Below, one piece after another: positions 1,271-8,353 of a stretch of 8,353 nucleotides of DNA; position 1 is the stretch's first letter, and each line of letters opens with the position of its first letter. Source of the stretch: a virus (taxonomy: Duplodnaviria > Heunggongvirae > Uroviricota > Caudoviricetes); IMG/VR virus record IMGVR_UViG_2877274432_000004; one strand, written 5' to 3'. Under the pieces are notes generated by a model that ran no database searches, was not told the DNA's origin, and saw only the letters and a program-made list of their open reading frames with translations. A program made the position numbers and the translations under genes.

Positions 1271-2167
1271 ATGACAAACAAAAAGATAAACCTTCCTGAA
1301 AGGGATTATTACCCGTTAGACAAGGCAGCCAGAAGGCTTGGGTGTGACGTTGATGATTTGATTCACTTCATCGCTACAGGGAAGATGTGTTTTTGGTACC
1401 GTCATCACATAGACGAGGTTTTGACATTACATAATTATAAAAACGCATTTAATAGTGTATCAGCATCAGATTATTATTATGAAAATGATGAAGGCGTATT
1501 CATCAGAGCAACCGACATATTAAAATTACTTGAATTCTCATCTTTTGGTGAAAAAATAATAACCGATGAAGAACAGCTAACGGAAAAGATATTTTTTAAT
1601 TGCTGTGGCGGTTATTCTGAAACAGATATTTTTATATACAACTATCATGGATATAAACAAAGAAAAATCAGAACACAGTTACCACATAAAATCAGGGTTG
1701 TGGCTTCAGGACTTTTACAGGTATTTAATACAAGCATTGATATAGAGAATCTATCAAATGACGTCACAGATTGTTATGTGCGACGCATCGTTATAGCAGA
1801 TAAAGGAAAAGAACCAAAGATAACAATAAATTTATATGGCAAAACAATAAATATTAGTGACATTTTCATCTCAAAAGAAGAGATAAAAATAGTAATGAAC
1901 GGCGGCAGACAACCAGGAGATATGGTAAAGGATTTTTCAGATAAACACGCCTTGTCGCATTCGCAGAGTAAGAAAACAACCAATCTTCAGGCCAGAGTTA
2001 TCAAAAGACTAATCACCGCCATAGCCGGAGAAGAAGAGGCAGCAAACCCAAGAAGAGCGCTTGAGAACGGTCACAGCAAGTTAAGCCGCGCACTAACCAA
2101 AGCAGGGGTTGAAATTGGCGCAACCCCTTCATCTGTTGGTAAGTGGCTTGCAGACGTTGACGACTGA
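1271..2167 (+). CDS. Hypothetical protein, 298 aa, AT-rich cargo gene directly downstream of int; possible N-terminal HTH; function unknown
   Basis: Long ORF starting 4 nt after the int stop (weak SD AAGGG). Central part about 22-28% G+C in hand-counted 60-nt samples (1441-1500, 1801-1860) versus about 48% in int (1021-1080). Followed by a strong intrinsic terminator. No family recognised. Confidence 0.7.
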   Translation: MTNKKINLPERDYYPLDKAARRLGCDVDDLIHFIATGKMCFWYRHHIDEVLTLHNYKNAFNSVSASDYYYENDEGVFIRATDILKLLEFSSFGEKIITDEEQLTEKIFFNCCGGYSETDIFIYNYHGYKQRKIRTQLPHKIRVVASGLLQVFNTSIDIENLSNDVTDCYVRRIVIADKGKEPKITINLYGKTINISDIFISKEEIKIVMNGGRQPGDMVKDFSDKHALSHSQSKKTTNLQARVIKRLITAIAGEEEAANPRRALENGHSKLSRALTKAGVEIGATPSSVGKWLADVDD

Positions 2168-2508: not shown

Positions 2509-2851
2509 TAAATTTCCATGTGTGACATATAAAAGCCACCAGCGCAGAAAATAAAACGCCTCACGTTATGCAAAACGGGTTAACCATCGTGATGCCTTGC
2601 CGCATTCAATTAACGGCAGGTAAAAAAATACCCGCAATGCAATAACACTACGGGCCATTAACGTAATATAAGGAGTTAACCGATGTGTATTGTATACAGT
2701 CGTGTGCATATTGTCACAGGCAACAGGCATCCGCGCCAAATACCCGCCAGAGAAAATCAGTTGATCGCCAGTATCAAAAATGGCTATGATTCCCGCACAC
2801 CTTATAAAACGGGTGTCGGGATTAGGACCCCGCTGACAATCGAGGCGATAC

Positions 2852-2874
2852 AGACGCCGAACGCGTCTTTTTTT
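2852..2874 (+). terminator. Intrinsic terminator-like hairpin plus U-run upstream of the first structured leader
   Basis: AGACGC-CGAAC-GCGTCT hairpin (2852-2868) followed by a 7-T run (2868-2874). It lies inside an open frame that starts at ATG 2683. Confidence 0.5.
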
Positions 2875-2933
2875 GTATCGGCGCACACGCACACCTTATC
2901 AATGGTGGGCTGTATGGGGCTGACTTCGGTCAG

Positions 2934-2955
2934 GCTGGTTCCCTTGATTGCCAGT
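2934..2955 (+). promoter_or_regulatory. Leader hairpin 1 (stem GCTGG/CCAGT, 12-nt loop) whose loop is complementary to the SD region of the downstream small ORF; candidate antisense/anti-SD RNA element
   Basis: Loop 9-mer CCTTGATTG (2942-2950) is the exact reverse complement of CAATCAAGG (3020-3028), which overlaps the SD AAGGAGG of the ORF starting at 3040. The stem and a downstream AACCCTGT block are conserved in the paralogous unit. Confidence 0.4.
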
Positions 2956-3039
2956 AGTCCTAACCCTGTACAGTCCACCGCCAGCGAGTTTAGGACCTCC
3001 GGCGGTGGTTACATTCCATCAATCAAGGAGGCTGCCATC

Positions 3040-3228
3040 ATGGCTACTACCCCTGCCCTCGTACATTCTCAGACAGCCTTTATCTGGCGTTTTATCACCT
3101 TTGGCACGTCAGAACGTCAAATCATCCACGTAACCGCCTGGACGGAACGCGAAGCGCGTAACCGTTGCCCGTCCGGTTTTGTCGCTGTATTCGCTGCCCG
3201 TATCCGTCAGGGGGTGAGTCATGCTTAA
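3040..3228 (+). CDS. Small protein (62 aa), paralog 1; Icd/Kil-like (phage cell-division-inhibitor-like) by recollection
   Basis: ATG at 3040 with strong SD AAGGAGG 7 nt upstream. The C-terminal 45 aa are clearly paralogous to the ORF ending at 3685 (FIWRF ... VTAxTEREAR ... VFAARIRQGVSHA versus FVWRF ... VTAATEHEAR ... VFVARIRQGVRHA). The ORF track's longer version starting at 2683 is judged to be leader, not protein. Confidence 0.55.
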   Translation: MATTPALVHSQTAFIWRFITFGTSERQIIHVTAWTEREARNRCPSGFVAVFAARIRQGVSHA

Positions 3229-3412
3229 AAACATGTTGCTCGCCTCTTCTTTCGGGCTGTATGATGCCGGAGTCGTCCACATGGCGACCGGGTTTGACAG
3301 CCTGAATACTACAGCGGACAGCCGCTTACATTCCGATATGCGGTTTTTTTGTGTCCGTAAGCCTACCCATACCCGCATTATGGCGGGGCGTAACGGGGGA
3401 GCCTTTGCGCTC

Positions 3413-3433
3413 GCTGGTTCCTGTAGTGCCAGT
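3413..3433 (+). promoter_or_regulatory. Leader hairpin 2 (same stem GCTGG/CCAGT, different loop) complementary to the SD region of the second small ORF
   Basis: Loop CCTGTAGTG (3420-3428) is the exact reverse complement of CACTACAGG (3496-3504), overlapping SD ACAGGAG of the ORF starting at 3515. Pairing extends to 13 bp with one G-U (3416-3428 versus 3496-3508). Confidence 0.4.
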
Positions 3434-3514
3434 CTGTCAACCCTGTTACGTCTCGCCACCATGTTTGACAGCGTAGTAGCGAGACTCCTTAATTTCACTA
3501 CAGGAGCCTTTCAC

Positions 3515-3685
3515 ATGGCTGTATCCGCACGCCCTTACTTTGTCTGGCGCTTTATGCAGTGCCACCACAGCAACATCGATGTATTCACCGTTACCGCTGC
3601 CACTGAGCACGAAGCACGCGCCCAGCTGCCGCACGCACATCTTGTTTTTGTCGCCCGTATCCGTCAGGGGGTACGTCATGCGTGA
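3515..3685 (+). CDS. Small protein (56 aa), paralog 2 of the Icd/Kil-like ORF
   Basis: ATG at 3515 with SD ACAGGAG. C-terminal region paralogous to 3040-3228. Stop overlaps the next start (ATGCGTGA). The ORF track's longer version starting at 3221 is judged to be leader. Confidence 0.55.
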   Translation: MAVSARPYFVWRFMQCHHSNIDVFTVTAATEHEARAQLPHAHLVFVARIRQGVRHA

Positions 3686-4066: not shown

Positions 4067-4366
4067 ATGAACATGAAAAAAACTGGCTTAACTGCCAGCG
4101 GCAAACCTCGCCCTGAATTTAAGCGCGGTGATATTTACCGCGACCAGTACGGTGGCACGGTAATGATTAAGGGCGTGGCGGGGCGGTGCGTCAACTACCG
4201 CCGTAAAGGCTACGAATATGATTGCGTGATGCCTGTTTATCAGTTTTCCCGTGATTTTTCTCTGGTGCAGGCGGTACCGCGTAACGTGCCCACCAGCAAC
4301 GTAAAGGCACTGGCAAAAATACAGAAGATGAAAAAGATGATTAACGCATTCAGGGGCAAGAAATGA
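4067..4366 (+). CDS. Hypothetical basic protein (99 aa), coupled to the replication gene
   Basis: SD AAAGGA upstream of ATG 4067. The stop overlaps the start of the downstream replicase (ATGA at 4363-4366). No family recognised. Confidence 0.6.
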   Translation: MNMKKTGLTASGKPRPEFKRGDIYRDQYGGTVMIKGVAGRCVNYRRKGYEYDCVMPVYQFSRDFSLVQAVPRNVPTSNVKALAKIQKMKKMINAFRGKK

Positions 4367-5763
4367 AAAGCGCACCGAACTTAAAAAAACAGCCTTACGA
4401 CAAAATGACCGAGGTCATTATTTTTGCGGGTGGTGATGCCTGGGCACACGCGAAGCAGTGGCAGGAGCAGGAGGGGCGACTTGCTGGCGATAATGTGCCA
4501 CCTGTATGGCTTGGGGAGCAGCAACTTGCAGAACTGACAGACATGAGAATCATCGACGAGGGCCGCTATTGCGTCCGGCTGTACAAAGCAGGCCATATCA
4601 GACCATCAAATATTAATGCCATTGCGCACAAGCTGGCAGCGGCAGGTGTACAGGATGCGAATTATTACCCCGATGGGATGCACAGCCAGAAGCGGGAGAA
4701 CTGGCGCGAATATCTGGAACGGGAGCGCGGTAATAAGCCAGTGGAAGAAAAAAGCCACCAGCGAAACACCACGCTACCGATGAGCGTTGGATCTGCCGGA
4801 TATGACACGCAACTGGATTACGTGGTTAAGGGGATTATTCCGGCGGTATCGCTGTGCAGCATATACGGGGCGAGCGGTTCCTATAAATCGTTCCTTGCGG
4901 GTTCGTGGGCGTGTCACGTTTCCACGGGCCGCCAGTGGGGAGGCCGCAGGGTTGCGCATGGTGCGGTTCTCTATGTGGTTGGTGAAGGCGGTATCGGCGT
5001 TCCGCGTCGTGTAAAAGCCTGGGAGGTTGTGCACGGTGAGCAGGTGAAAAATCTGTATCTGGTAAACCGTCCCATCTTTCCTGCCGCCTCGCTTGATGTT
5101 GATGAAATGGTTATCGCTGCCCGCCAGGTGGAACGGGAAACGGGTAAACCGGTTCGAATGATTATTCTGGATACGCTGGCGCGTTGCTTTGGCGGCAATG
5201 ATGAAAATGATTCCCGTGATATGGGGGCGTTTATCCGTGGGTGTGACGAACTGAAACGGCGCACAGGGGCAACGGTGCTGGTGGTTCATCATTCCGGCAA
5301 GGATGAAACAAAGGGGGCGCGTGGTTCCAGTGCATTCCGTGCATCACTGGACGCCGAATACCGGATACGCAGGGAGGACGCAGGAAGCGAATCGCTGGTT
5401 ATCTCATGTACCAAAATGAAGGACGCGGAGGAACTCAAAGAAGCTGCCTACGATTTGCGGGTAGTTGAGCTTTTTAACGACGCTGACGGGGAGTTAATCA
5501 CGTCTCTGGTGGTGGTGGATGAGCCGCGCCATCCCGTTGAACCGGAGCGCATCGAGGAGGCAGGGAACAAGACGGAAAACCATACCGCGCTATGGGGGTG
5601 CATCCGTTCGCGCACACAGAACGGCGACAGGTGCACGATCCCGCTGTTACGTGATGACATGAAAAAACTGGGGTACGAAATGAAAAACTTCCGGCGCTGG
5701 CTGTACAAGCTGGAAAAAGACAGGGTTATCCGTATCGATGGGGATGATGTAACGCCGCTATAA
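4363..5763 (+). CDS. Replication initiator ATPase / helicase, RecA-fold (RepA / AAA_25-like), with N-terminal domain of unknown function
   Basis: 466-aa ORF. Walker A GASGSYKS (nt ~4868-4891), Walker-B-like MIILDTLARCF (nt ~5155-5187) and VLVVHHSGK typical of RepA/DnaB-like RecA-fold ATPases. An iteron-rich putative ori lies immediately downstream. Confidence 0.8.
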   Translation: MKSAPNLKKQPYDKMTEVIIFAGGDAWAHAKQWQEQEGRLAGDNVPPVWLGEQQLAELTDMRIIDEGRYCVRLYKAGHIRPSNINAIAHKLAAAGVQDANYYPDGMHSQKRENWREYLERERGNKPVEEKSHQRNTTLPMSVGSAGYDTQLDYVVKGIIPAVSLCSIYGASGSYKSFLAGSWACHVSTGRQWGGRRVAHGAVLYVVGEGGIGVPRRVKAWEVVHGEQVKNLYLVNRPIFPAASLDVDEMVIAARQVERETGKPVRMIILDTLARCFGGNDENDSRDMGAFIRGCDELKRRTGATVLVVHHSGKDETKGARGSSAFRASLDAEYRIRREDAGSESLVISCTKMKDAEELKEAAYDLRVVELFNDADGELITSLVVVDEPRHPVEPERIEEAGNKTENHTALWGCIRSRTQNGDRCTIPLLRDDMKKLGYEMKNFRRWLYKLEKDRVIRIDGDDVTPL

Positions 5764-5975
5764 AAGTGAGGTGCAAAAGTGAGGGGTATAGAAGGAGGGC
5801 CAAAATAAGGCCGCCCTCCCTCACTTTCTCACCTGTATATAGGCAAAAAAGTGAGTAGTAAAAAATTACATATAAAACACACACATAAAAATACTAAAAA
5901 TCTCAAGCGAGGAGAGGCAAGGAGAGGCGAGCGATTCTAAAAAGTGAGTAAAAAAAGTGGGTAGTAGTGAGGAAA
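5762..5975. repeat. Putative origin of replication: AAAGTGAG(G/T) iterons in both orientations flanking an AT-rich tract, plus GGAGAGGC direct repeats
   Basis: AAAAGTGAGG at 5762 and 5775. Inverted copy inside CCCTCCCTCACTTTCTCACC (5815-5834). AAAAAGTGAGTAG at 5845. AAAGTGAGTA / AAAGTGGGTAG / TAGTGAGG at 5941-5971. AT-rich tract around 5860-5905. GGAGAGGC at 5911, 5921 and 6012. Inverted repeat GGAGGGC ... GCCCTCC at 5794-5819. Confidence 0.5.
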
Positions 5976-6025
5976 CGACAAAAAAACACAAAGCAGAGCA
6001 GCACAAAAACAGGAGAGGCAGCAGC

Positions 6026-6436
6026 ATGACAGCACAGATAGCAGCTTACGGGCGGCTGGTAGACGACCCGCAGGTAAAACAGACCAGCAAGGGAACACCG
6101 ATGACGCTGGCGCGTATGACGGTATCGCTGCCATGCAGTCAGGCGCAGGACGGGCAGGCGACGTTATGGCTGTCGGTCCTGGCATTTGGCAAACAAGCCG
6201 ACCAACTGGCAGGACATGAGAAAGGCAACGTAATCAGTGTATCCGGTGTGATGCAGGTAAGCCAGTGGACCGGACAGAACGGGGAAACGCGGCAGGGTTA
6301 TCAGGTCATTGCAGACAGCGTAATCAGTGCGAAAACGGCGCGACCAGGTGGCAACAGACGCAGGACCACAGGCACACAGGGTAATCAGCCACCAGCGGGA
6401 GGCGATGACCCTTATGGTGATGATATTCCGTTCTGA
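6026..6436 (+). CDS. ssb: Single-stranded DNA-binding protein (SSB) with acidic C-terminal DDIPF tail
   Basis: 136-aa ORF from ATG 6026 (SD AGGAGAGG, 7-nt spacer). OB-fold-like pattern (GRLVDDPQVK ... W ... AFGK) and a C-terminal ...DDPYGDDIPF matching the conserved SSB protein-interaction tail. The ORF-track start at 5957 is probably too early. Confidence 0.8.
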   Translation: MTAQIAAYGRLVDDPQVKQTSKGTPMTLARMTVSLPCSQAQDGQATLWLSVLAFGKQADQLAGHEKGNVISVSGVMQVSQWTGQNGETRQGYQVIADSVISAKTARPGGNRRRTTGTQGNQPPAGGDDPYGDDIPF

Positions 6437-6719: not shown

Positions 6720-6832
6720 GCACAGGACAGGAACAGTCAGCCGGATTTTCTGATTGTGTGCGTGTATATCGTTTTATCGCGACGTTAAATTAAACTGGTA
6801 TGACCAGATACACCAACATAAGAGGCTACCGG

Positions 6833-7240
6833 ATGAACGATCAAAACCATCACGCACCAAAAGACATTGAGCGGATTAAATTCATAAATGACATAGACGG
6901 CGGAGACAAACCCGGCGAGGCATGGTGTGATTCGCTTGCTGATATCGTGTCTCATTCAGTGGCTGAGCTTACCCGTAATGGCATGGAGCAGTCTGAAGCC
7001 TTCAGAATCGCCAAGCAGGTTGTTGCTGCAATCGCCTTCTATGCTGGTGGGCGAAGTCTTTACCTTCCAACAGGCAGATCACTTTTTGTAGCATTGCGCG
7101 AATACGAGATTTACCACAGGTGGGATAACGGCGAAAAATTACAGGAATTACGCAAAGAGTACGCAATATCAGAAACCCATATTTACGACATCATCCGGCG
7201 ACTAAGAAAGAAGCACGCCAATAAAATCACGCAAGACTAA
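6833..7240 (+). CDS. Mor-family (Mu middle-operon-regulator-like) transcriptional activator
   Basis: 135-aa ORF from ATG 6833 (SD AGAGG, 7-nt spacer); alternative start at 6800. C-terminal HTH-like region LREYEIYHRWDNGEKLQELRKEYAISETHIYDIIRRL is typical of Mor/C-type activators. Confidence 0.7.
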   Translation: MNDQNHHAPKDIERIKFINDIDGGDKPGEAWCDSLADIVSHSVAELTRNGMEQSEAFRIAKQVVAAIAFYAGGRSLYLPTGRSLFVALREYEIYHRWDNGEKLQELRKEYAISETHIYDIIRRLRKKHANKITQD

Positions 7241-7374: not shown

Positions 7375-7440
7375 GTGAAAAAAGGTGAAAGAAGCTGATT
7401 TTTGTGAAATTAAGCGAAATCACGTGAAATCAGGTGAAAT
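7375..7440 (+). repeat. Array of six (G)TGAAA(T) direct repeats with roughly 10-bp phasing; candidate protein-binding array (regulatory or packaging)
   Basis: GTGAAA 7375, GGTGAAAG 7384, TGTGAAAT 7403, GCGAAAT 7414, CGTGAAAT 7423, GGTGAAAT 7433. Non-coding: stops in all frames. Confidence 0.5.
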
Positions 7441-7516: not shown

Positions 7517-7616
7517 GGCTGTATGGTGTACTCTTAATCGGTAAAGCGGCACCCGCTTGTATAGCTTCCAGAAAGCGGGATGTTTATGTGGGTTCGACCC
7601 CCACCACCAGCAACCA
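7517..7616 (+). other. tRNA-like element, copy 1 (degenerate 5' half; intact T-arm plus acceptor 3' strand)
   Basis: T-stem GTGGG (7588-7592) / CCCAC (7600-7604) with T-loop TTCGACC, followed by CACCAGCA. Shares a ~33-nt block with copy 2. Not a canonical tRNA. Confidence 0.3.
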
Positions 7617-7635
7617 ACAACCTCATTGCTTTTTT

Positions 7636-7717
7636 GCTGGTGTACGCTCAACGGGTAGAGCCGGTGCCAGCCTGTACAGGCTGATCATGTATGCGGGTTC
7701 GACCCCCGCCACCAGCA
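7636..7717 (+). other. tRNA-like element, copy 2: acceptor, D-arm and T-arm are tRNA-like but the anticodon arm is replaced by a perfect 16-nt palindrome
   Basis: Acceptor GCTGGTG (7636-7642) pairs with CACCAGC (7710-7716). D-arm GCTC-AACGGGTA-GAGC. T-arm GCGGG-TTCGACC-CCCGC (7693-7709). Central CAGCCTGTACAGGCTG is a perfect palindrome rather than a 7-nt anticodon loop. No encoded CCA. Confidence 0.35.
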
Positions 7718-7921
7718 CACCAAAACGAGCGCCACATCAACCAGCATTAAAACCGCCCTAAAACCATTTTCAAACTTTCGACAGCGCATACATGAACGCC
7801 ATCGGTTTGCATGTGCACATTGATACCCGTTATCGACGATCAAACAGCAAGGGTATCTTTTTCAAAAAAGGCATACAAAAAGGCATACAAAACGAAAATC
7901 AAAAACACATAATTAATATAA

Positions 7922-8353
7922 ATCAATGGAATAACCAATCAATTCATAGACATCCCGGGTCTGAAATTGCCGCTGTTTGACGGTGGACGGTTGAATGCCA
8001 ATCTCGAAGGCACGCGCGCCGCCAGCAACATGATGATTGAACGTTACAACCAGTCAGTACTGAACGCGGTGCGTGACGTTGCCGTCAACGGCACGCGTCT
8101 GCAAACGCTCAACGACGAGCGAGAAATGCAGGCTGAACACGTGGAAGCAACGCGCTTCACCCAGCGCGCTGCCGAGGCCGCCTATCAGCGCGGCTTAACC
8201 AGCCGCTTACAGGCCACTGAAGCCCGGTTGCCAGTACTTGCCGAAGAGATGTCATTACTGATGCTGGACAGCCGCCGGGTGATCCAAAGCATTCAGTTGA
8301 TGAAATCGCTGGGCGGCGGGTATCAGGCGGCTCCCGTCGTCGAGAAAAAATAA
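7922..8353 (+). pseudogene. 3' fragment of a TolC-family (OMF/NodT-type) outer-membrane efflux protein gene; 5' part absent from this locus, apparently displaced by the island
   Basis: Frame open from 7922 (after TAA at 7919-7921); the ORF track's first start is TTG at 7967. Translation (IDIPGLKLPLFDGGRLNANLEG ... LMKSLGGGYQAAPVVEKK) matches the C-terminal region of outer-membrane efflux factors. Upstream is AT-rich non-coding DNA, so the gene has no N-terminal two-thirds here. Confidence 0.75.

What the first reader, a model, noticed from the sequence alone, without database searches (positions are those of the whole stretch)
5762..6025. Iteron-type replication origin immediately downstream of the RepA-like ATPase gene
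Seen in sequence: at least five direct and one inverted copy of AAAGTGAG(G/T), an AT-rich tract (~5860-5905), three copies of GGAGAGGC and a GC-rich inverted repeat (5794-5819). Established knowledge: satellite and plasmid origins typically lie just 3' of the initiator gene and combine iterons with an AT-rich unwinding element. Inference: this is the island's own ori, fired by the upstream ATPase after excision, with the island-encoded SSB supporting replication.
Basis: partly seen in the sequence, partly recalled or inferred. Interest (0 to 1): 0.4.

Follow-up and report, generated by a model that had tools for sequence, protein, structure and literature searches.

The report
Satellite island replication origin with iterons
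The 260 bases after the island's helicase gene form a phage-satellite (PICI-type) replication origin of an already described kind: short repeats around an AT-rich stretch that appear to be read by the helicase's own C-terminal DNA-binding domain.

Summary
AAGTGAG occurs five times in the window, all within 5763-5949. Seven of the window's 14 GTGAG cores lie in 214 bp (binomial P about 2e-8). They flank a 15-20% GC tract at 5857-5905.

The window is an E. coli PICI-like satellite inserted in mdtP. Its Rep gene is the same allele as the "Pri-Rep" of the published PICIs EcCI042 and EcCIRM12579. For that family the origin was described as iteron sets flanking an AT-rich region immediately 3' of rep (Fillol-Salom 2018). 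Function was tested only for the EcCICFT073 allele, which has different iterons.

New comparative evidence:
- In 80 Enterobacterales loci the repeat core downstream of rep tracks one residue of Rep's C-terminal winged-helix domain: Asn gives GTGAG, His or Lys gives GTGGG, Ser or Gly gives GTGCG.
- Two Rep proteins with 97% identical helicase cores have all roughly ten repeats switched, A to G, on the same scaffold.

- Two GGAGAGGC copies are a 10-bp duplication inside decayed central iterons. The third is the ssb ribosome-binding site.
- The GC hairpin is not conserved; only the inverted iteron arrangement is.
- This is not a plasmid Rep_3-type origin.

Verdict: new member of a known kind. Replication function itself remains untested.

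The parts
4363..5763 (+). rep: 466-aa initiator-helicase made of an N-terminal a/b domain, an RSF1010-RepA-like RecA-fold ATPase and a C-terminal winged helix. It has no primase domain.
   Evidence: Pfam AAA_25, 6e-43. Profile match to PDB 1G8Y, RSF1010 RepA, 2.9e-5. Same allele as EcCI042 WP_000833617.1, annotated 'helicase RepA family'. AF2 model.
5560..5760 (+). Rep C-terminal winged-helix domain (residues ~400-466). The predicted recognition helix is 443-452 (FRRWLYKLEK), with N442 at its N-cap.
   Evidence: AF2 pLDDT 84-96. Foldseek top hits are all winged-helix DNA-binding domains with TM 0.6-0.74, although E-values of about 0.2 are individually not significant. Residue 442 covaries with the iteron base.
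5763..5771 (+). Iteron 1, AAAGTGAGG; it overlaps the rep stop codon.
   Evidence: conserved position in the alignment.
5776..5784 (+). Iteron 2, AAAGTGAGG.
5791..5822 (.). GC-rich inverted repeat that fills the variable spacer between the direct and the inverted iterons.
   Evidence: The sequence is shared with L002/L084 but replaced by AT-rich inverted repeats in L001, L090, L091 and L086. No terminator-like site was found.
5819..5827 (-). Iteron 3 (inverted), AAAGTGAGG on the minus strand.
5828..5834 (-). Iteron 4 (inverted, weaker), AGGTGAG on the minus strand.
5832..5841 (.). Conserved CCTGTATA(T/C)A box next to the inverted iterons.
   Evidence: Nearly invariant in 9 aligned origins, including the GTGGG-type ones. 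Its role is unknown.
5848..5856 (+). Iteron 5, AAAGTGAGT.
5857..5905 (.). AT-rich tract (15-20% GC), the presumed DNA-unwinding element.
   Evidence: It sits between iteron sets in all relatives.
5905..5934 (+). Decayed central iteron pair (AAGCGAGGA ... AGGCGAGCG) carrying a 10-bp tandem duplication, AGGAGAGGCA/AGGAGAGGCG (5910-5929).
   Evidence: Relatives have AGGTGAGACGAAGTGAGCG here; the window has a 10-bp insertion.
5941..5949 (+). Iteron 8, AAAGTGAGT.
5954..5962 (+). Iteron 9, AAAGTGGGT (one mismatch).
5964..5972 (+). Iteron 10, GTAGTGAGG.
6005..6025 (+). Deletion/recombination joint followed by the ssb ribosome-binding site (GGAGAGG at 6012-6018, the third GGAGAGGC copy). It is not part of the origin.
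   Evidence: Relatives have AAAACCGGAGAG(G)... before the ssb ATG, and 190-600 bp of small ORFs between the origin and ssb. Megablast homology to other ssb loci starts at 6005.
6026..6436 (+). ssb, the island-encoded single-strand DNA-binding protein.
   Evidence: Pfam SSB 3.7e-15; TIGR00621.

Best explanation
5763-5972 is the cognate replication origin of a PICI-like phage satellite.

Shown by comparison. The short repeats (consensus AAAGTGAGG) are binding sites for the winged-helix C-terminal domain of the Rep protein encoded immediately upstream.

Inferred, by analogy with SaPI Rep and P4 alpha.
- After the island is induced and excised, Rep made from 4363-5763 binds the two iteron sets on either side of the AT-rich tract (5857-5905).
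- It melts that tract and loads itself there as a hexameric RSF1010-RepA/DnaB-like helicase.
- Because this Rep has no primase domain, priming is presumably by host DnaG. The island's SSB coats the unwound strands.

Origin identity appears to be set largely by Rep residue 442: Asn reads the A of GTGAG. Islands with His, Lys or Ser at that position would therefore use their own, non-cross-reacting origins.
For: 1. Non-random cluster. All 5 AAGTGAG copies and 7 of 14 GTGAG cores lie in 214 bp, around the lowest-GC 40-mers.

2. Conserved architecture. The array begins at the rep stop codon. The order is 2-3 direct iterons, a variable spacer, 1-2 inverted iterons plus CCTGTATAYA, one direct iteron, an AT-rich stretch of about 40 bp, then 2 + 3 direct iterons. 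This order is kept in E. coli and Salmonella relatives while non-repeat bases diverge.

3. Module swap. EcCICFT073 has a different rep (primase family) and different repeats (CTGTCTACC/GGTAGAYA) at the same place, while the downstream small ORF, ssb and perC stay homologous. That rep-ori was shown to drive plasmid replication, and deleting ori significantly reduced it (PMC6092414).

4. Covariation in 80 loci from more than 20 genera. The residue before F in K-x-F-x-R-W predicts the repeat core GTG[x]G: N gives A in 32/32 loci, H gives G in 10/11, K gives G in 27/28, S or G gives C in 9/9. Origins hold 5-8 copies against about 0.5 per equal length of flank.

5. Natural switch. L088 (Salmonella) and L086 (E. 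coli) Reps are 96.9% identical in the helicase core and 91.7% in the C-terminal domain. Yet every copy, including the inverted one, is GTGAGG in L088 and GTGGGG in L086, on an alignable scaffold. Conversely, the window and L088 share only 66% of the core and 54% of the N-terminal domain but have the same iteron.

6. Protein fold. The C-terminal domain is confidently predicted as three helices plus a beta wing (pLDDT about 90-96), and all top fold matches are winged-helix DNA binders. N442 caps the third (recognition) helix.

7. Published relatives. The Rep allele is that of PICIs EcCI042 and EcCIRM12579. The family's origin is described as two iteron sets flanking an AT-rich region 3' of rep. 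SaPI Reps bind such iterons through a C-terminal winged helix (PMC9371898).
Against: - There are no functional data for this rep allele or this island. Only the EcCICFT073 allele was tested.
- In the window the central iteron pair is decayed (GTGAG to GCGAG, plus a 10-bp duplication), and the sequence between origin and ssb is deleted. This copy could therefore be weakened.
- Unlike SaPI origins, all copies right of the AT tract point the same way.
- Covariation between a gene and adjacent DNA is partly expected from linkage. The argument rests on the concerted change of all copies and on the uncoupling from the other Rep domains.
- The fold-search E-values for the small C-terminal domain are not individually significant.
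- The identity of N442 as the contacting residue is confounded by a second change, K452N, in the L086/L088 pair.
Confidence: 0.8

Rival explanations
1. It is a decayed, no-longer-firing remnant of such an origin. The island is a degenerate satellite, and the repeats persist only by descent.
For: - The central iterons are degenerate and interrupted by a 10-bp duplication not seen in any relative.
- The small ORFs between origin and ssb are deleted.
- The island has no capsid or packaging genes.
- ARAGORN finds no tRNA where relatives have two.
Against: - Rep is full length and keeps every column that is invariant in 42 homologues.
- Eight of ten iteron positions are intact, and GCGAG variants also occur at some positions in other islands.
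- Near-identical islands sit at two different chromosomal sites, mdtP and tRNA-Ile, which argues for recent mobility.
Confidence: 0.12
2. The repeats are Rep-binding (or other regulator-binding) operators that control transcription of the downstream ssb-perC-mor genes or of rep itself, rather than an origin.
For: - The array lies between two co-oriented genes.
- Winged-helix proteins are commonly transcription factors.
- An inverted-repeat arrangement exists.
Against: - No sigma-70-like promoter or terminator was found in 5500-6300.
- The array is 3' of rep, not at its promoter.
- About ten sites split around an AT-rich core is origin geometry, not operator geometry.
- The downstream genes stay the same when the repeats and rep are swapped, so the repeats follow rep, not ssb/perC.
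- The equivalent region of EcCICFT073 behaves as an origin.
Confidence: 0.05
3. It is a packaging (pac/cos) or partition site, or simply low-complexity A-rich intergenic sequence.
For: - Strong A-skew of the region.
- Satellites need a packaging signal somewhere.
Against: - The repeats are specific 8-9-mers that change in concert with Rep's C-terminal domain. Low-complexity sequence would not do so.
- There is no terminase or partition gene in the island.
- There is no Rfam match.
Confidence: 0.03

Closest known systems
Gram-negative PICI replication origins (EcCICFT073, EcCI042, EcCIRM12579; Fillol-Salom et al. 2018, PMC6092414)
   Same: - Same gene order: alpA ... DUF4222 - rep - ori - (small ORF) - ssb - perC.
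- The origin lies immediately 3' of rep, as iteron sets flanking an AT-rich region.
- The window's Rep is the EcCI042/EcCIRM12579 allele (about 89% nucleotide and 96% protein identity) with the same GTGAG repeats.
   Different: - The functionally tested origin (EcCICFT073) belongs to another rep allele with unrelated iterons.
- The window's island is smaller (about 7.9 kb) and has no capsid or redirecting genes. It carries mor and tRNA-like genes.
- It sits in mdtP, a site not in that paper's list of attachment sites.
- It has lost the ORFs between origin and ssb, and part of the central iterons.
SaPI origins and Rep initiator-helicases (Ubeda et al.; Qiao et al. 2022, PMC9371898)
   Same: - A self-contained initiator-helicase with a C-terminal winged helix that recognises short repeats.
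- 6-12 repeats placed directly after the rep ORF, with a central AT-rich region.
   Different: - SaPI Reps are AAA+ SF3/SF6 helicases. This Rep has an RSF1010-RepA-like RecA-fold core.
- The repeats here are 8-9 bp rather than 5-6 bp.
- Inverted copies occur only on the left side of the AT tract.
Satellite phage P4 alpha protein with ori/crr (from my own knowledge: Ziegelin, Lanka, Calendar; Yeo et al. 2002 for the winged-helix origin-binding domain)
   Same: - Octamer repeats bound by the C-terminal winged helix of a multifunctional replication protein of an E. coli satellite.
- Longer homologues of this Rep in Pectobacterium and Xenorhabdus carry a P4-alpha-like Zn-ribbon + TOPRIM primase at the N-terminus.
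- The island also has P4-type C4/isrK immunity RNAs.
   Different: - The window's Rep has no primase domain.
- The helicase class differs.
- No second cis site (crr) with the same repeats is present: the other 7 GTGAG cores in the window are scattered.
IncQ (RSF1010) oriV with RepA/RepB'/RepC
   Same: The closest solved structure to the ATPase core is RSF1010 RepA (1G8Y, E 2.9e-5). The origin likewise combines iterons with an AT-rich region.
   Different: - In RSF1010 a separate protein (RepC) binds 20-bp iterons, and RepA is only the helicase.
- Here no RepC-like gene exists. The helicase carries its own DNA-binding domain, and the repeats are 8-9 bp.
Classical plasmid iteron origins (pSC101, F, P1, R6K, RK2; Rep_3-type initiators)
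   Same: Repeated initiator-binding sites lie next to an AT-rich unwinding element and adjacent to the initiator gene.
   Different: - Those iterons are 17-22 bp in helically phased tandem arrays.
- The initiator is a non-helicase Rep_3 protein.
- They contain DnaA boxes.
- None of these features is found here.

Membership tests
PICI-type replication origin (SaPI / Gram-negative PICI) | Lies immediately 3' of the rep (pri-rep) gene. | tested here: met
   The first iteron overlaps the rep stop codon at 5761-5763. The same holds in all relatives.
PICI-type replication origin (SaPI / Gram-negative PICI) | [quoted passage not shown] | tested here: met
   Five copies at 5763-5856 and five (two of them decayed) at 5905-5972, around the 15-20% GC tract 5857-5905.
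PICI-type replication origin (SaPI / Gram-negative PICI) | [quoted passage not shown] | tested here: not met
   Inverted copies (5819, 5828) occur only left of the AT tract. All copies on the right are on the + strand. This criterion was stated for SaPIs; whether it applies to Gram-negative PICIs is not known.
PICI-type replication origin (SaPI / Gram-negative PICI) | The cognate Rep carries a C-terminal winged-helix domain that recognises the iterons. | tested here: met
   The winged-helix fold is predicted with pLDDT 90-96, and the fold matches are all winged-helix DNA binders. Recognition is supported by residue-base covariation in 80 loci. Physical binding was not tested.
PICI-type replication origin (SaPI / Gram-negative PICI) | Rep-dependent autonomous replication of a rep-ori fragment. 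| not testable with these tools
   Published only for EcCICFT073, a different allele.
Gram-negative PICI (the island as a whole) | int, alpA and rep transcribed in one direction, a specific attachment site, and no phage lysis or tail genes. | tested here: met
   int 1-1266, AlpA-like gene 2305-2508 (phrog_66), rep 4363-5763, all on the + strand. The island is inserted in mdtP, as in L091.
Gram-negative PICI (the island as a whole) | Helper-phage-dependent induction and high-frequency packaging (cos/terS, capsid-redirecting genes). | not testable with these tools
   No capsid, terS or redirecting gene was found in the window. A helper is unknown.
Plasmid Rep_3-type iteron origin | 17-22-bp iterons in a phased tandem array, bound by a Rep_3-family initiator. 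| tested here: not met
   The repeats are 8-9 bp at 11-13 bp spacing. The only Pfam domain of the initiator is AAA_25.
Plasmid Rep_3-type iteron origin | DnaA boxes, IHF sites or Dam sites accompanying the iterons. | tested here: not met
   No exact DnaA box was found; the two one-mismatch matches overlap iterons. There is no IHF consensus and no GATC in 5700-6100.
IncQ/RSF1010 oriV system | A separate iteron-binding initiator (RepC) and primase (RepB') besides the RepA helicase, with 20-bp iterons. | tested here: not met
   The RepA-like core is present, but no RepC- or RepB-like ORF is in the window, and the repeats are 8-9 bp.
P4 ori/crr system | An alpha-type primase-helicase and a second cis-acting repeat cluster (crr). 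| tested here: not met
   This Rep has no Zn-ribbon or TOPRIM, whereas homologues L048 and L010 have them. There is no second GTGAG cluster in the window.

The most novel reading that the evidence does not exclude
A single position of the Rep winged helix (residue 442 in this protein: Asn, His, Lys or Ser/Gly) acts as a simple recognition code for the fourth base of the iteron core (GTG-A/G/G/C-G). Enterobacterial satellites use it to create mutually orthogonal rep-ori pairs. Several PICIs, and Rep proteins that are otherwise 97% identical, could then coexist in one cell without cross-firing or incompatibility. The rep-ori unit would be exchanged as a cassette, bounded by the DUF4222 gene on the left and about 6005 on the right.
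Probability: 0.45. Interest if true: 0.5.

Novelty: new member of a known kind. Interest (0 to 1): 0.33.

Why it matters
It places an unannotated intergenic stretch in a known functional class and marks the island as a likely replication-competent satellite rather than a dead prophage remnant. That matters for predicting whether its cargo (perC-family regulator, mor, tRNA-like genes) is mobile in pathogenic E. coli. The by-product, a residue-to-base rule linking Rep's C-terminal domain to its iterons across Enterobacterales, gives a directly testable handle on origin specificity and incompatibility among co-resident satellites. It could also guide the design of orthogonal small replicons.

Tried and rejected
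- **Full-length Rep model against the PDB.** The multi-domain model has mean pLDDT 65.6 and the matches were meaningless. I replaced it with a model of the C-terminal domain alone.
- **Single-sequence search of Rep against the PDB.** No hit. The profile search then found RSF1010 RepA.
- **Rfam on the region.** Only sub-threshold miRNA-hairpin noise, so a structured RNA is rejected.
- **Promoter/terminator scan of 5500-6300.** Nothing was found. The GC hairpin as a rep terminator is rejected: it has no T-run and is not conserved in relatives.
- **My first label for L002.** I called it a cf-PICI; this was wrong. It is the published classical PICI EcCIRM12579.
- **First literature search.** Useless because min_terms was 1.
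- **Search for the iteron sequence in papers.** No hit. Fig. 2a of PMC6092414, which lists iteron sequences, is not readable here, so I cannot say whether GTGAG iterons were explicitly drawn.
- **ED1a record.** Not held in the collection.
- **GGAGAGGC as a second iteron family.** Rejected: it is a 10-bp duplication plus the ssb ribosome-binding site.
- **A crr-like second site.** None exists for GTGAG. The GTGAAA array at 7375-7440 has a different sequence.
Full report
**1. What the window is**

The window carries a small island whose genes all lie on the + strand:
- a tyrosine integrase (1-1266);
- an unknown low-GC ORF (1271-2167);
- an AlpA-like excisionase/regulator (2305-2508);
- Ash and Icd-like "Bro-zone" genes (2683-3685);
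- DUF4222 (4067-4366);
- a 466-aa AAA_25 ATPase (4363-5763);
- the 262-bp spacer in question;
- SSB (6026-6436), PerC (to 6719) and Mor (6800-7240);
- the 3' part of E. coli mdtP from 7951.

A 95%-identical island splits mdtP in E. coli STEC17-183. A 92-94% relative sits at a tRNA-Ile gene in strain 48.

**2.

- AAAGTGAGK has exact copies at 5763, 5776, 5848 and 5941 (+) and 5819 (-), and a one-mismatch copy at 5954. No exact copy occurs elsewhere in the window.
- All five AAGTGAG 7-mers, and 7 of the 14 GTGAG cores in the window, lie in 5762-5975 (binomial P about 2e-8).
- The AT-rich tract (15-20% GC, 5857-5905) ties for the lowest-GC stretch of the window.
- GGAGAGGC occurs three times against 0.18 expected.
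- The GC-rich inverted repeat exists, and the extended hairpin is unusually stable (z = -3.9).

**3. Identity of the module**

The rep-to-ssb segment matches about 2000 E. coli genomes. Among them is O55:H7 RM12579, whose element is the published Gram-negative PICI EcCIRM12579 (PMC6092414 Table S1).

EcCI042, whose "Pri-Rep" is one of the four alleles compared in that paper's Fig. S10, encodes the same 466-aa "helicase RepA family protein". [quoted passage not shown] It shows that the EcCICFT073 rep-ori segment drives plasmid replication, and that deleting ori significantly reduces it. A later survey repeats that the origin lies downstream of pri and colocalises with ssb.

EcCICFT073 itself has a different rep (584-aa primase family) and quite different repeats (CTGTCTACC / GGTAGAYA) in the same spacer. 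Its downstream small ORF, ssb and perC remain homologous to the window's relatives. So rep and the repeats travel together as one cassette.

**4. Anatomy, from alignment of nine origins**

The array begins at the rep stop codon. In order it contains:
- two or three direct iterons;
- a variable spacer of about 30 bp;
- one or two inverted iterons, followed by a nearly invariant CCTGTATA(C/T)A;
- one direct iteron;
- the AT-rich stretch;
- a pair of often imperfect iterons;
- three closely spaced direct iterons.

- **Spacer.** L002 and L084 share it, but L001, L090, L091 and L086 have AT-rich inverted repeats there. The conserved feature is therefore the inverted disposition of iterons, not the hairpin sequence.
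- **Central pair.** It has decayed to GCGAG and carries a 10-bp tandem duplication (AGGAGAGGCA/AGGAGAGGCG, 5910-5929) that no relative has. This explains two of the GGAGAGGC copies.
- **Third GGAGAGGC (6012).** It is the ssb ribosome-binding site, which is conserved as GGAGAG(G) before the ssb ATG in relatives.

Relatives also carry one or two small ORFs (190-600 bp) between origin and ssb. The window has lost them, with a junction near 6005.

**5. Who binds the repeats**

Rep homologues are three-part mosaics of an N-terminal domain, an ATPase core and a C-terminal domain of about 70 aa. I collected 80 loci from Enterobacterales genomes plus several metagenomic and E. coli contexts.

In essentially every locus, the 330 bp after rep hold 5-14 copies of a short repeat that is rare in the flanks. 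The repeat core depends on the residue preceding Phe in the conserved K-x-F-x-R-W motif of the C-terminal domain:

| Residue | Core | Loci |
|---|---|---|
| Asn | GTGAG | 32/32 |
| His | GTGGG | 10/11 |
| Lys | GTGGG | 27/28 |
| Ser or Gly | GTGCG | 9/9 |

The two exceptions have no repeat array at all.

Linkage alone cannot explain this, as the domain comparisons show.
- Salmonella L088 and E. coli L086 share 96.9% of the helicase core and 91.7% of the C-terminal domain, and their origin scaffolds align. Yet every one of about ten copies, inverted and degenerate ones included, is GTGAGG in L088 and GTGGGG in L086. Only two C-terminal-domain differences separate L086 from all GTGAG-type proteins: N442H and K452N.
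- Conversely, the window and L088 share only 66% of the core and 54% of the N-terminal domain but use the same iteron.
- L090 shares its N-terminal domain (85%) with L086 but not its iteron.

A minor unexplained case: four Xenorhabdus loci with Asn have ATGAGG rather than GTGAGG. This coincides with a Gln/His-to-Asn change at the equivalent of position 452.

**6. The protein**

- AlphaFold2 predicts the C-terminal 70 residues with pLDDT 90-96 as helix, helix, helix and a two-stranded wing. All top PDB fold matches are winged-helix DNA-binding domains (DtxR, LexA, MarR/MepR, IclR, DnaD, ORC and MCM winged helices), with TM 0.6-0.74. Their E-values, about 0.2, are not individually significant for so small a domain.
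- N442 sits at the N-cap of the third helix (443-452), the usual recognition helix.
- The ATPase core is closest to the RSF1010 RepA hexameric helicase (1G8Y, E 2.9e-5; Pfam AAA_25).
- Longer homologues in Pectobacterium and Xenorhabdus carry a P4-alpha-like Zn-ribbon + TOPRIM primase at the N-terminus. The window's Rep does not, so priming by host DnaG is inferred.

**7. Mechanism**

Shown by comparison: the repeats are the cognate sites of Rep's C-terminal domain, and they form a conserved bipartite array around an AT-rich core directly after rep.

Inferred by analogy with SaPI Reps and P4 alpha (my own knowledge): Rep binds both sets, melts the AT tract and self-loads as a hexameric helicase, while the island's SSB stabilises the bubble. 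Firing after helper-induced excision is likewise inferred.

No DnaA box, IHF site or GATC accompanies the array. This fits independence from the host initiator.

**8. Rivals**

- **Decayed remnant in this particular island (about 0.12).** The damage to the central iterons, the deletion and the missing packaging genes favour it. The intact Rep, eight good iteron positions and near-identical islands at two chromosomal sites argue against it.
- **Operator array for ssb/perC or rep (about 0.05).** The repeats follow rep, not the downstream genes. No promoter was found, and the geometry is that of an origin.
- **Packaging or partition site, or low complexity (about 0.03).** Not compatible with the concerted, Rep-linked change of the repeats.
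- **Structured RNA.** Excluded by Rfam.

**9. Comparison with known systems, and novelty**

It works like, and by position, layout and rep allele belongs with, Gram-negative PICI origins. It resembles SaPI origins in logic but uses a RecA-fold (SF4-like) helicase instead of AAA+ SF3/SF6, has longer repeats, and lacks inverted copies on the right side.

It is not a plasmid Rep_3 iteron origin, not an IncQ oriV (no RepC, and the helicase carries its own DNA-binding domain) and not a P4 ori/crr pair.

The origin itself is therefore a new member of a known kind. What I did not find in the literature searched is the residue-to-base rule and the natural N/H switch. Note that Fig. 2a of PMC6092414 could not be read.

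**10. Scores**

Interest is 0.33.

Noticed in passing
window 2797-2873, 2898-2985, 3376-3463 (+): Rfam gathering-level hits to isrK (59 bits) and two C4 antisense RNAs (78 and 72 bits) lie inside the ash and icd-like ORFs. These are P4-CI-type immunity RNAs, so the island mixes PICI-like and P4-like regulatory features.
   Followed up: partly
window 7524-7621 and 7636-7717 (+): There are two tRNA-like sequences that are diverged duplicates of each other. Rfam calls the second a tRNA (37.5 bits), but ARAGORN calls neither. Relatives annotate 'tRNA-OTHER' and tRNA-Tyr at this place.
   Followed up: partly
window 7375-7440 (+): Six (G/T)GTGAAA(T/A) repeats at 10-bp (one helical turn) spacing lie just upstream of the tRNA-like genes and downstream of mor. 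The motif is not enriched window-wide and differs from the Rep iterons. Possibly a regulator array (Mor?) or a packaging site.
   Followed up: no
window 7951-8353; L091 1722-2795 and 11227-11640: The island interrupts the coding sequence of mdtP: the 5' part lies left of int and the 3' part right of the island. This integration site is not among those listed for E. coli PICIs in PMC6092414 Table S1.
   Followed up: partly
window ~5990-6025, compared with L001 7620-7840, L002 7600-7850 and L092 2400-3020: The window lacks the one or two small conserved ORFs (for example the 83-aa WP_000192401.1) that relatives carry between origin and ssb. The junction lies between two AAAAC(A/C) motifs near 6005.
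   Followed up: partly
window 4363-5763 and homologues L002, L086, L088, L090: Rep is a three-module mosaic. Identities of the N-terminal domain, ATPase core and C-terminal domain are uncoupled between relatives; for example L090 against L086 gives 85%, 68% and 72%, and L088 against L086 gives 55%, 97% and 92%. This implies frequent recombination at domain borders.
   Followed up: yes
window 1271-2167 (+): A 298-aa ORF right after int has about 30% GC against about 52% for the rest of the island. It has no Pfam, PHROG or NCBIfam hit and is conserved in the sister islands. It is a candidate accessory or defence gene.
   Followed up: no
L014, L016, L027, L082 (Xenorhabdus and relatives), 330 bp after rep: The iterons read AAATGAGGAA instead of AAGTGAGGA although the Asn is kept. 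This coincides with a Gln/His-to-Asn change at the end of the predicted recognition helix (the equivalent of K452), hinting at a second specificity position.
   Followed up: partly
window 7865-7888 (+): An exact 12-bp tandem duplication, AAAAAGGCATAC x2, lies in the AT-rich stretch just before the mdtP junction. It may be part of the attachment site or an integrase arm site.
   Followed up: no
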